Of a stretch of DNA of 24,000 nt, positions 14,762-15,091 are shown piece by piece. This DNA comes from Candidatus Binataceae bacterium (lineage in GTDB: Bacteria; Desulfobacterota; Binatia; Binatales; Binataceae). Location of the stretch: NCBI GenBank assembly GCA_052146355.1, contig JBKQNE010000082.1:1-24000 (forward strand). Reading direction: 5' to 3'. The notes under the pieces are model-generated. The model was not told the DNA's origin, searched no databases, and saw only the letters and a program-made list of their open reading frames with translations. Position 1 is the first letter of the stretch. Each line of letters begins with the position of its first letter. The translations under genes were made by a program, and so were the position numbers.

Positions 14762-15091
14762 ATGCAATCAAACCGCCGCCCTCGCATCGCGTCGGTGTGT
14801 GCCACTGTCGCGTGGATCGCCGCGTCGGCATCAATCGCCAGCGCGCACGGTGGGATGGCGGGTCCCGACGAGCTCGGACGCCCGCTGATCACTTCAGTGA
14901 TCCTCGCTGCGGTCTGCTATTGGGTGGTCATCCTATGGCCATCGCGCAAGCCGAACACCAAGGTGCCCTCAAACACGGGAGGATCGCGCAACCGCCGCGC
15001 GCGGCCGCGCCGTCCGGTCGGCATACAAGGTGGGACGCGAGCCGGTGCGCCCTATGAGGCTCGCGGCTGGCAGAAGGGTCGTGGCGAATGA
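14762..15091 (+). CDS. small membrane protein encoded between pmoA and pmoB (no recognisable family)
   Basis: It fills an otherwise unexplained 331-nt pmoA-pmoB gap. Its TGA (15089-15091) overlaps the pmoB ATG (15088-15090) in an ATGA junction. Third codon positions are GC-rich like its neighbours. It has a predicted signal peptide ending ASA, mature N-terminus HGGMAGPDE, one TM helix (LITSVILAAVCYWVVILW) and an Arg/Lys-rich tail. GTG 14723 is an alternative start that would overlap pmoA. Confidence 0.55.
   Translation: MQSNRRPRIASVCATVAWIAASASIASAHGGMAGPDELGRPLITSVILAAVCYWVVILWPSRKPNTKVPSNTGGSRNRRARPRRPVGIQGGTRAGAPYEARGWQKGRGE

What the first reader, a model, noticed from the sequence alone, without database searches (positions are those of the whole stretch)
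14762..15091. Extra small membrane ORF inserted between pmoA and pmoB and translationally coupled to pmoB
Seen directly: pmoA and pmoB are separated by 331 nt, unusually long for this operon type. The gap is filled by one same-strand ORF whose TGA overlaps the pmoB ATG (ATGA at 15088-15091). The product is about 109 aa from ATG 14762. It has a signal-peptide-like N-terminus ending ASA, then HGGMAGPDE, one TM helix, and a highly basic tail (RNRRARPRRP). If cleaved, the mature protein would start with His followed by Met at +3, a plausible Cu(I)/Cu(II) handle. Inference: it could be a fourth subunit or a dedicated copper-loading factor. This would be analogous in position, not in sequence, to the small amoX-type genes of archaeal AMO clusters.
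Basis: partly seen in the sequence, partly recalled or inferred. Interest (0 to 1): 0.75.

Follow-up and report, generated by a model that had tools for sequence, protein, structure and literature searches.

The report
Small fourth gene in copper monooxygenase operon
Between the A and B genes of a copper membrane monooxygenase operon from an uncultured Binatia bacterium lies a real, strongly conserved gene for a tiny single-pass membrane protein with a histidine-bearing outer tip, most likely an unrecognised extra subunit or copper-handling partner of the enzyme.

Summary
An ORF at 14762-15091 (109 aa) fills the 331-nt pmoA-pmoB gap, and its TGA overlaps the pmoB ATG.

It is a real gene:
- About 96 clusters of relatives exist, with no Pfam, NCBIfam or PDB match.
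- It sits between pmoA and pmoB in 31 of 31 species genomes and in 66 of 72 evaluable metagenome loci.
- dN/dS is 0.085 in the core (His to TM helix) and about 0.45 in the signal and tail parts.
- Nearly every third codon position varies.

The product has a signal peptide (AxA), then H-G-G-M-A-G-P-D-E, then one TM helix (CYWxVILWP), then a basic cytoplasmic tail. Its stop usually overlaps the pmoB start. In one sublineage it is fused in frame to PmoB.

His-Gly is universal in the family. The Met is not.

X is not PmoD. A PmoD-SCO1 fusion lies upstream of pmoC.

Actinobacterial hmoCAB operons and a sister CAB clade carry a similar small "AH(G)G..(D/E)E + TM" gene just after pmoB. Homology to X is unproven (hhalign P 0.002-0.08).

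Best reading: a supernumerary single-pass subunit, like those recently seen in pMMO and AMO structures, whose periplasmic His motif may bind or pass on copper.

The "x" gene was noted without study in Binatota (Murphy 2021). I rate it a new variant of a known kind, interest about 0.62.

The parts
14762..15091 (+). Gene X: 109-aa small membrane protein (CDS including the TGA stop)
   Evidence: ORF. Relatives. Synteny. dN/dS. Codon-position signature.
14762..14845 (+). Predicted Sec signal peptide (M1-A28). It has a basic n-region (RRPR), a hydrophobic core, and A-S-A at positions -3 to -1.
   Evidence: Read from the sequence. Position -1 is Ala in about 94% of relatives and -3 is a small residue in most. 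It evolves fast (dN/dS 0.46). AF2 predicts a helix at residues 6-24. Cleavage is inferred; SignalP was not available.
14846..14884 (+). Periplasmic N-terminal motif HGGMAGPDELGRP. His29, Gly30, Gly31, Met32, Ala33, Asp36, Gly39 and Pro41 are invariant among the close relatives.
   Evidence: Alignment A1. Only His-Gly is universal in the wider family.
14885..14941 (+). Transmembrane helix LITSVILAAVCYWVVILWP. Its cytoplasmic end, C-Y-W-x-V-I-L-W-P, is nearly invariant.
   Evidence: Hydropathy maximum. AF2 helix at residues 41-57. Invariant columns. Core dN/dS is 0.085.
14942..15088 (+). Basic, disordered cytoplasmic tail (13 K+R against 2 D+E). Its length and sequence vary between lineages.
   Evidence: pLDDT below 50. 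dN/dS 0.44. The last codons overlap the pmoB ribosome-binding and start region.
15088..15091 (+). ATGA: the pmoB start codon overlapping the X stop codon
   Evidence: The X stop overlaps the pmoB start in 50 of 94 loci: -8 nt in 34 and -4 nt in 6.
14754..14764 (+). TGAAACCGATG: the pmoA stop and the X start, 5 nt apart
   Evidence: The A-to-X gap is 0-21 nt in most loci.
13104..13943 (+). pmoC/hmoC
   Evidence: Pfam AmoC, E 1.2e-45
13971..14756 (+). pmoA/hmoA
   Evidence: Pfam AMO, E 3.3e-55
15088..16356 (+). pmoB/hmoB. The predicted mature N-terminus is AFA|HGEAGDEPF, and the HxH CuB ligands are present (RWHVHPG).
   Evidence: Pfam Monooxygenase_B, E 5.9e-78. Sequence.
11942..13084 (+). PmoD-like domain + TM + SCO1/SenC fusion (copper-chaperone module) immediately upstream of pmoC
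   Evidence: Pfam SCO1-SenC. AF2 pLDDT 87. Foldseek top hit is the PmoD soluble domain 6cpd, E 2.4e-10.

Best explanation
X is a translated fourth structural gene of the HMO-type copper membrane monooxygenase operon of Binatia. The gene order is pmoD-sco1, pmoC, pmoA, X, pmoB.

X is made in step with PmoA and PmoB through stop/start coupling. It is exported by a Sec signal peptide that is probably cleaved after AxA. It then sits in the membrane as a single-pass protein, with the N-terminus outside and the C-terminus inside.

I propose that its helix, with the near-invariant CYWxVILWP cytoplasmic end, packs against the membrane part of the enzyme (PmoB and/or PmoC) as a supernumerary subunit, one per protomer. 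This would place a roughly 13-residue periplasmic tip, H-G-G-M-A-G-P-D-E, at the outer membrane surface. The invariant His, helped by Met and Asp/Glu, would there bind copper or hand it over to the enzyme.

Shown: gene reality, conservation, synteny, coupling, and in-frame fusion to PmoB.
Inferred: signal-peptide cleavage, topology, stable association with the enzyme, and any metal role.
For: - Frame under purifying selection. Whole-gene dN/dS is 0.14-0.40 and core dN/dS is 0.085, comparable to PmoB. Third codon positions vary at 34 of 35 core codons, against 18 and 15 for first and second positions.
- The family is real but unannotated. There are 34 close relatives and 96 clusters at E<=1e-3 among 1.84 billion representatives. 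There is no hit in Pfam, NCBIfam, PDB or Rfam.
- Synteny. X lies between pmoA and pmoB in 31 of 31 species-level genomes and in 66 of 72 evaluable metagenome loci.
- Coupling. The X stop overlaps the pmoB start in 50 of 94 loci. The pmoA stop lies 0-21 nt from the X start.
- In-frame X-PmoB read-through ORFs occur in four distinct sequences of one sublineage: L023, L061, L062 and P0049. This works topologically only if the X C-terminus is cytoplasmic, which agrees with the basic tail.
- The signal region and the tail evolve fast while the tip and the helix do not. This fits a cleaved leader plus a packed helix.
- Precedent for supernumerary subunits: a 23-aa single-TM subunit in Methylocystis pMMO and a 46-aa one in N. 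europaea AMO, both next to PmoC/AmoC (PMC11725843); AmoD and AmoE in N. halophila AMO (PMC12804982); AmoX/Y/Z and further small subunits confirmed in the archaeal AMO structure (10.64898/2026.08.31.748207).
- Copper theme of the operon. A PmoD-SCO1 fusion lies upstream. Three products have a predicted mature N-terminal His: AWA|HRFGGPNDP, ASA|HGGMAGPDE and AFA|HGEAGDEPF.
- Similar His/acidic + TM microproteins sit next to pmoB in Actinobacteria (7 of 7 contexts) and in a sister CAB clade.
Against: - There is no expression, proteomic or structural evidence.
- X alone gives only two helices and disorder.
- Six related loci (PmoA about 70% identical) lack X between A and B, so X is not universally required in that position.
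- Met at +3 is not conserved.
- In the actinobacterial and sister-clade proteins the His is internal and there is no signal peptide. This argues against a free-amine His brace as the shared mechanism, if they are homologous at all (hhalign P 0.0078, 0.0024 and 0.075).
- A single His with carboxylates is a weak copper site on its own.
- The clade-specific Trp residues in PmoB and PmoC are confounded by phylogeny.
Confidence: 0.55

Rival explanations
1. X is a transient copper-loading or assembly factor rather than a stable subunit. The membrane-anchored His/Met/Asp/Glu tip would receive copper from the PmoD-SCO1 module, pass it to PmoB (CuB) or PmoC (CuC/CuD) during assembly, and then dissociate.
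For: - An invariant His at the predicted mature N-terminus, with frequent Met and Asp-Glu.
- A neighbouring PmoD-SCO1 fusion.
- The X tip resembles the PmoB N-terminus of the same operon: HGGMAGPDE against HGEAGDEPF.
- PmoB Asp38, next to the CuB His, is specific to the X-containing clade.
Against: - Stop/start coupling and in-frame fusion to PmoB imply a 1:1 synthesis ratio, which is unusual for a catalytic chaperone.
- The most conserved part includes the cytoplasmic end of the helix, far from any periplasmic copper transfer.
- The Met is not conserved.
Confidence: 0.2
2. X is a purely structural supernumerary helix with no metal role. It would act in lipid binding, protomer stabilisation or array formation. 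The His/acidic tip would serve only packing or hydrogen bonding at the membrane surface.
For: - Known supernumerary helices of pMMO and AMO act through lipid-mediated contacts with PmoC/AmoC, and no metal ligands are reported for them (PMC11725843, PMC12804982).
- The aromatic belt Y-W...W-P at the cytoplasmic interface.
- Extra Trp residues in the PmoB and PmoC TM segments of the X-containing clade.
Against: The periplasmic tip is as conserved as the helix and is rich in potential ligands (H, M, D, E). The His is the one residue shared with the actinobacterial and sister-clade microproteins.
Confidence: 0.2
3. X matters mainly as a translated spacer that couples pmoB translation to pmoA. The peptide itself would be of little consequence.
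For: Tight stop/start junctions on both sides. The tail is variable and fast-evolving, and its last codons overlap the pmoB initiation region.
Against: The core has dN/dS of 0.085 with 15 invariant residues over deep synonymous divergence, pS up to 0.87. The signal peptide and TM architecture are kept in all members. Related CAB operons join A and B directly, with a gap of 0-46 nt and no spacer.
Confidence: 0.04
4. X is not a gene: it is a chance ORF in GC-rich DNA, or a conserved RNA element.
For: Long spurious ORFs are common in this window. X has no database annotation.
Against: - Codon-position signature and dN/dS well below 1.
- An intact frame in 98 loci, with core length differences only in whole codons.
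- No Rfam match.
Confidence: 0.01

Closest known systems
Supernumerary single-TM subunits of bacterial pMMO and AMO: the 23-aa protein in Methylocystis sp. Rockwell pMMO; the 46-aa ORF in N. europaea AMO, which is the new 'AmoD' of N. halophila (PMC11725843, PMC12804982)
   Same: They are very small single-pass membrane proteins associated with a CuMMO and were long overlooked by annotation. The Rockwell helix has the same N-out orientation that is predicted for X.
   Different: - No sequence similarity was found in a PDB profile search.
- The known ones are encoded outside the operon and are shorter.
- They have no signal peptide and no reported His motif.
- The AMO helix has the opposite orientation.
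- X is encoded inside the operon between A and B.
Archaeal AmoX/AmoY/AmoZ, and the 'amoX/pmoX' of Angelarchaeales C-A-X-B clusters (PMC10030591 preprint 10.1101/2022.04.06.487334; PMC9038741)
   Same: They are small membrane proteins encoded with amoABC. The Angelarchaeales gene order, C-A-X-B, is identical. The archaeal ones are now confirmed as true subunits by structure.
   Different: They belong to very distant CuMMO lineages. No archaeal sequence was retrieved by the X profile among 1.84 billion representatives. AmoX has several helices and compensates for helices missing in archaeal AmoC, whereas PmoA, PmoB and PmoC here are full length.
PmoD/AmoD (cupredoxin-like copper protein with a C-terminal TM anchor, PDB 6cpd; PMC6189053)
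   Same: It is a periplasm-facing, membrane-anchored, copper-related accessory protein of CuMMO operons.
   Different: X has only about 13 periplasmic residues and no beta-sandwich domain. A genuine PmoD-fold domain is encoded separately at 11942-13084.
Unnamed small ORF immediately after hmoB in Actinobacteria (for example Mycch_5908 of M. chubuense NBB4), and 'AAH(E/Q)GEE + TM' ORFs after pmoB in a sister CAB clade
   Same: These proteins are 60-100 aa with one TM helix. They carry the motif A-H-G(-G) followed by an acidic pair just outside the membrane, then basic residues after the helix. They are always adjacent to the B gene of HMO-type operons. The bridging sequence LMA|HGGGMTGEE...YWTVVLWPKRKK lies between pmoA and pmoB in L037.
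   Different: They have no signal peptide, so the His is internal. They lie after B, not between A and B. The helix motifs differ. Profile-profile support is weak (P 0.0078, 0.0024 and 0.075), so homology is not established.

Membership tests
PmoD/AmoD family | Periplasmic cupredoxin-like beta-sandwich domain of about 120 aa | tested here: not met
   X has about 13 periplasmic residues. AF2 shows only two helices. There is no Pfam or NCBIfam hit. The PmoD fold is found in the separate upstream gene.
PmoD/AmoD family | C-terminal TM anchor and linkage to a CuMMO operon | tested here: met
   X has a single TM helix and lies inside the operon. This feature alone does not define the family.
Supernumerary single-TM subunits of bacterial pMMO/AMO | Sequence similarity to the solved supernumerary chains | tested here: not met
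   A profile search of all PDB chains of 20 aa or more found only one spurious low-complexity hit, E 1.6.
Supernumerary single-TM subunits of bacterial pMMO/AMO | Physical presence in the enzyme complex next to PmoC/AmoC | not testable with these tools
   This needs cryoEM, native MS or co-purification. A multimer prediction was not possible.
Supernumerary single-TM subunits of bacterial pMMO/AMO | Very small single-pass membrane protein co-occurring with a CuMMO | tested here: met
Archaeal AmoX/Y/Z | Sequence homology to archaeal AmoX, AmoY or AmoZ | tested here: inconclusive
   The HMM search of 1.84 billion representatives returned only Binatia-type short proteins. No direct comparison with AmoX/Y/Z sequences was made.
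Histidine-brace copper proteins (PmoB CuB, LPMO, CopC type) | His as residue 1 of the mature protein after signal-peptide cleavage | tested here: inconclusive
   The AxA|H context is conserved (-1 is Ala in about 94%), but cleavage was not predicted with a dedicated tool or measured. The possibly related proteins have an internal His.
Histidine-brace copper proteins (PmoB CuB, LPMO, CopC type) | A second His (or equivalent ligand) completing the brace, and demonstrated Cu binding | not testable with these tools
   Many members read AHA|HGG or VA|HAHGG, which gives a second His, but the window protein has only one. Metal binding needs experiment.
Binatia X family (defined here) | AxA-H-G...(D/E)-(L/I/M)-x-P-P tip, a G-x-x-C-Y-W-x-V-I-L-W-P helix, and a position between pmoA and pmoB | tested here: met
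   The window protein scores 85.6 bits against the core HMM. It carries all invariant columns of A1.

The most novel reading that the evidence does not exclude
HMO-type copper membrane monooxygenases of Binatia, Actinobacteria and a sister clade share an ancestral fourth component. It is a micro-membrane protein whose juxtamembrane His plus acidic pair supplies a ligand set to, or gates copper entry into, a metal site of the enzyme (CuB of PmoB, or CuC/CuD of PmoC). On this reading the minimal active enzyme is CABX, not CAB. This could help explain why CuMMOs lose activity on purification and are so hard to express heterologously.
Probability: 0.15. Interest if true: 0.85.

Novelty: new variant of a known kind. 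Interest (0 to 1): 0.62.

Why it matters
The subunit composition, the active-site identity and the failure to express copper membrane monooxygenases in other hosts are long-standing problems. Structures from 2024-2026 showed that overlooked single-helix proteins are real parts of pMMO and AMO.

This family is the first such candidate I could find that has all three of these properties:
- It is encoded inside the operon.
- It is synthesised 1:1 with PmoB, and in one sublineage is even fused to it.
- It carries a conserved potential metal ligand at the periplasmic membrane surface.

Pipelines that require A, B and C to be consecutive genes (for example PMC12533140) would misjudge or drop such operons.

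A possible counterpart lies right after hmoB in Mycolicibacterium and Rhodococcus. HMO from Mycolicibacterium can already be expressed and mutated in M. smegmatis, so the idea is directly testable.

Tried and rejected
- AlphaFold on a linker-concatenated X-PmoC-PmoA-PmoB chain, to locate the docking site.
- AF2 of X alone. It gave only the expected two helices plus disorder (pLDDT 58), so no fold search was run on it.
- Searches with X in Pfam, NCBIfam and PDB sequences, and an Rfam scan of window 13000-16500, which includes X. Nothing was found.
- A link between X and the actinobacterial post-hmoB ORFs by HMM. The best scores were E 0.36-9.6 in a background of 5890 ORFs. hhalign gave P 0.0078. 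This is suggestive only, so I do not claim homology.
- A link between X and the sister-clade ORFs. hhalign gave P 0.075, which is not significant.
- The papers by Coleman 2012, Sayavedra-Soto 2011 and Zou 2021 on actinobacterial operons were not readable. I could not check whether the post-hmoB ORF was ever named there.
- The supplement of PMC11725843, which holds the supernumerary helix sequences, is not held.
- Promoter and terminator scans gave nothing useful inside the operon.
- Two loci first flagged as X-PmoB fusions (L107, L109) turned out to be long overlapping tails, not fusions.
- The GTG 14723 start was rejected. Its apparent conservation reflects the overlapping pmoA C-terminus.

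Full report
**1. What is there**

The window is a 60% GC stretch. Its closest relatives are MAGs of Candidatus Binataceae (Binatia, also called Desulfobacterota_B). It carries a copper membrane monooxygenase (CuMMO) cluster, confirmed by Pfam and NCBIfam:
- pmoC at 13104-13943
- pmoA at 13971-14756
- pmoB at 15088-16356

The 331 nt between pmoA and pmoB are filled by one same-strand ORF, called X here, from ATG 14762 to TGA 15091. The pmoA stop lies 5 nt before the X start (TGAAACCGATG). The X stop overlaps the pmoB start (ATGA, 15088-15091).

**2. Is it a gene?**

ORF length alone means little in this GC-rich DNA, because one search lists many spurious ORFs of 100 aa or more. Conservation decides the matter.
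- A word-indexed search found 34 relatives, none with a Pfam domain and none with a name beyond 'hypothetical protein'. A profile search of 1.84 billion cluster representatives found 96 clusters at E<=1e-3 and 76 at E<=1e-10. All are short proteins.
- In the alignment of the close relatives, 15 columns are invariant: A28 H29 G30 G31 M32 A33 D36 G39 P41 Y53 W54 V56 L58 W59 P60.
- Pairwise Nei-Gojobori estimates give dN/dS of 0.14-0.40 for the whole gene. PmoA gives 0.01-0.05 in most pairs (up to 0.11) and PmoB 0.02-0.2.
- Split by region, the core (His to WP) has dN/dS of 0.085. The signal region has 0.46 and the tail 0.44. Synonymous differences reach pS 0.87.
- In 44 distinct core sequences of the modal length, third codon positions vary at 34 of 35 codons. 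First and second positions vary at 18 and 15.
- An intact in-frame core was found in 98 loci, and core lengths differ only by whole codons. There is no Rfam match.

The rival reading 'chance ORF or RNA element' is effectively excluded.

**3. Synteny and distribution**

A scan of one genome per GTDB species found 31 loci. Most are labelled Binatia, Binataceae or 'delta proteobacterium' MAGs; a few carry other phylum labels. In all 31, X lies between pmoA and pmoB.

A metagenome scan with a PmoA alignment returned the 80 closest loci, with PmoA 94-69% identical to the window's. Of 72 loci with enough sequence after pmoA, 66 have X directly after pmoA. Three loci (L019, L104, L105) have tandem copies.

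This matches the 'CAxB / CAxxB, x = hypothetical protein' organisation reported without further analysis for 8 Binatota genomes (Murphy et al. 2021, PMC8262859).

Six loci (L110, L112, L113, L115, L116, L117) have no X between A and B; the gap there is 0-46 nt. Their PmoA is about 70% identical to the window's, but their PmoB is only about 40% identical and has a different N-terminus, HGENSQEGFLRM. X is therefore specific to one CuMMO clade that also has its own type of PmoB.

**4. Anatomy of the product**

- Residues 1-28: a basic n-region (RRPR), a hydrophobic core, then A-S-A. Across the family, position -1 is Ala in about 94% and position -3 is small in most.
- Residues 29-41: HGGMAGPDELGRP.
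- Residues 42-60: the only strongly hydrophobic stretch of the mature part. It ends in C-Y-W-V-V-I-L-W-P.
- Residues 61-109: a basic tail (13 K+R against 2 D+E).

AF2 with the family alignment predicts helices at 6-24 and 41-57 and disorder elsewhere (pLDDT 58).

The positive-inside rule gives an N-out/C-in topology for the mature protein. This is inference, and SignalP and TMHMM were not available. Two observations support it:
- The leader evolves fast, as cleaved signal peptides do.
- In one sublineage (L023, L061, L062 and P0049, four different sequences from different assemblies) X has no stop codon and reads in frame into the PmoB signal peptide. This arrangement is viable only if the X tail is cytoplasmic.

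His-Gly after AxA is universal in the family. The Met is not: variants include HGGV, HGGL, HGDM, HGMD, HGVD, HGVN and HGAN. About half of the members read A-H-A-H-G-G, which gives a second His.

**5. Coupling**

Among 94 loci where the junction could be scored:

| Junction type | Loci |
|---|---|
| X stop overlaps pmoB start (-8 nt in 34, ATGA-type -4 nt in 6, ten other overlaps) | 50 |
| Gap of 0-10 nt | 6 |
| Gap of 11-60 nt | 20 |
| Gap of more than 60 nt (start-codon choice was heuristic) | 13 |
| No stop scored before mature PmoB | 5 |

Of the last five, three (L023, L061, L062) are true in-frame X-PmoB fusions. The other two (L107, L109) are long overlapping X tails rather than fusions.

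The exact ATGA is therefore not conserved, but close juxtaposition or overlap is the rule. The conserved last residues of many tails (…GRKASDV*) coincide with the pmoB initiation region. I read that conservation as a dual constraint; this is inference.

**6. Neighbours**

The gene before pmoC (11942-13084) has a C-terminal SCO1/SenC domain. Its N-terminal domain gave a confident AF2 model (pLDDT 87). The best structural match is the PmoD soluble domain (6cpd: E 2.4e-10, TM 0.75 normalised to the target, 26% identity). The next hits are generic Ig-like folds at E of about 1e-4.

The operon therefore already encodes a PmoD-SCO1 copper module, and X is not PmoD.

Three products of the cluster have a predicted mature N-terminal His: AWA|HRFGGPNDP, ASA|HGGMAGPDE and AFA|HGEAGDEPF. 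In PmoB this His is the known N-terminal CuB ligand (established knowledge; PMC11725843).

**7. Possible relatives elsewhere**

Actinobacterial hmoCAB clusters have only 4-26 nt between A and B (M. chubuense NBB4, M. dioxanotrophicus, Rhodococcus WAY2 and ZPP). Each has a small ORF 70-95 nt after hmoB. It reads M-x(3-5)-L-A-H-G-G-Q-M-T-G-D-E-M-A, then a TM helix, then RRTR, then an acidic tail.
- This is a family of at least 32 clusters with invariant L-A-H-G-G…D-E…A…P.
- In three further contexts, including a Nanopelagicales MAG, it again directly follows the B gene.

The X-less sister clade has yet another small ORF right after pmoB: M…A-A-H-(E/Q)-G-E-E-F-x-I-x-L-P, then a TM helix, then RWA(N/S)K.

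One protein encoded between pmoA and pmoB of a Binatia-like operon reads LMA|HGGGMTGEE…YWTVVLWPKRKK (L037). It combines the actinobacterial tip with the Binatia helix.

Statistics are weak for such short proteins:

| hhalign comparison | P | Detail |
|---|---|---|
| X vs Actinobacteria | 0.0078 | 39 columns aligned in register |
| Sister clade vs Actinobacteria | 0.0024 | |
| Sister clade vs X | 0.075 | |

An HMM of the X core gives the actinobacterial ORFs only E 0.36-9.6. I therefore treat these proteins as analogous and possibly homologous, not as demonstrated family members.

None of them has a signal peptide, so their His is internal.

**8. Mechanism**

The most economical reading is a supernumerary single-pass subunit. 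The arguments are:
- Position inside the operon and 1:1 coupled synthesis.
- A natural fusion to PmoB.
- A helix conserved on all faces at its cytoplasmic end.
- Direct precedent. Native-membrane cryoEM found a 23-residue single-TM protein on Methylocystis pMMO and a 46-residue unannotated ORF product on N. europaea AMO, both beside PmoC/AmoC, plus unassigned density near CuB (PMC11725843). N. halophila AMO has AmoD and AmoE (PMC12804982). The archaeal AMO structure contains AmoX/Y/Z and further small subunits.

The periplasmic tip is as conserved as the helix and is rich in ligand-type residues. A copper-binding or copper hand-off role at the outer membrane surface is therefore plausible, but it is entirely inferred.

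Three points argue against a general N-terminal 'His brace': the non-conserved Met, the single His in the window protein, and the internal His of the possible relatives.

Residues specific to the X-containing clade may mark contact surfaces, but the comparison is phylogenetically confounded:
- In the PmoB TM helices: W189, W190 and W241.
- In PmoC: W51, Y55, W79, W138 and W141.
- PmoB Asp38, next to the CuB His.

**9. Known or new**

The gene's presence was published as 'x' (PMC8262859). The same C-A-X-B order, with an unrelated-looking hypothetical gene, was described in Angelarchaeales (PMC9038741).

I found no paper, family model or structure that describes this protein's features, distribution, fusion or the actinobacterial counterpart. 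Several key subscription papers could not be read.

I class it as a new variant of a known kind (small supernumerary CuMMO components). It is interesting mainly because it makes the 'missing component' question testable in the tractable mycobacterial HMO system.

**10. Verdict**

- Observation: confirmed.
- X is a real gene: about 0.98.
- X is a stable subunit, possibly with a copper-related tip: about 0.55.
- X is a transient copper or assembly factor: about 0.2.
- X is a purely structural helix: about 0.2.
- Interest: 0.62.

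Noticed in passing
window 11942-13084 (+): The gene directly upstream of pmoC is a fusion. It consists of a PmoD-fold periplasmic domain (AF2 pLDDT 87; Foldseek top hit 6cpd, E 2.4e-10), a TM helix, a second hydrophobic segment with a lipobox-like sequence, and a SCO1/SenC domain. Most homologues of the N-terminal part are stand-alone proteins of about 200 aa with no Pfam domain.
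   Followed up: partly
L023 4001-5623; L061; L062; protein P0049: In one sublineage X has lost its stop codon and reads in frame into the PmoB signal peptide, giving a natural X-PmoB fusion ORF. The close relative L026 keeps a stop with a 17-nt overlap.
   Followed up: partly
L019 3968-4541; L104; L105: These loci have two tandem, diverged copies of X between pmoA and pmoB (the 'CAxxB' form).
   Followed up: partly
L032 6110-6325; L033 6105-6386; L034 6068-6364; L035 6085-6342; L118, L120, L122: Actinobacterial hmoCAB clusters all carry a small ORF right after hmoB. It reads MxxxILAHGGQMTGDEMA, then a TM helix, RRTR and an acidic tail. In most clusters a second small TM ORF follows it. Both are annotated only as hypothetical.
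   Followed up: partly
L110 2678-2866; L115 5159-5482; L116 2140-2313; L117 4051-4293; L112 about 5050-5290: A sister clade of plain CAB operons (PmoA about 70% and PmoB about 40% identical to the window's) has its own small ORF after pmoB. It reads AAH(E/Q)GEEFxIxLP, then a TM helix, then RWA(N/S)K.
   Followed up: partly
L028-L031 (marine Binatia), about 600-2150 and 4650-6140: PmoD-like genes, without the SCO1 domain, flank the operon on both sides. The X tips in these loci are shorter and lack the Met (HGMD, HGVD, HGVN, HGAN).
   Followed up: no
window PmoB residues 189, 190, 241; PmoC residues 51, 55, 79, 138, 141; PmoB residue 38: These Trp, Tyr and Asp residues are invariant in the X-containing clade and absent from X-less clades. 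Most lie in or near TM segments, and Asp38 lies next to the CuB N-terminal His. They could be contact sites, but the comparison is confounded by phylogeny.
   Followed up: no
window 10355-11923 (+), 16442-16867 (-), 16899-17675 (-), 17698-18858 (-): The operon is flanked by a GMC oxidoreductase upstream and by MAPEG, SDR and luciferase-like monooxygenase genes downstream. These are possible downstream steps of alkane or alcohol oxidation.
   Followed up: no
window 5409-7628 (-): A secreted-type GH5 cellulase with two CBM2 cellulose-binding domains lies 4 kb from the monooxygenase cluster.
   Followed up: no
window 20000-24000: GC content drops from about 0.62 to 0.56 and AT skew turns strongly positive. 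The 615-aa ORF at 20250-22097 (-) has no Pfam match. This may be a compositionally distinct segment.
   Followed up: no
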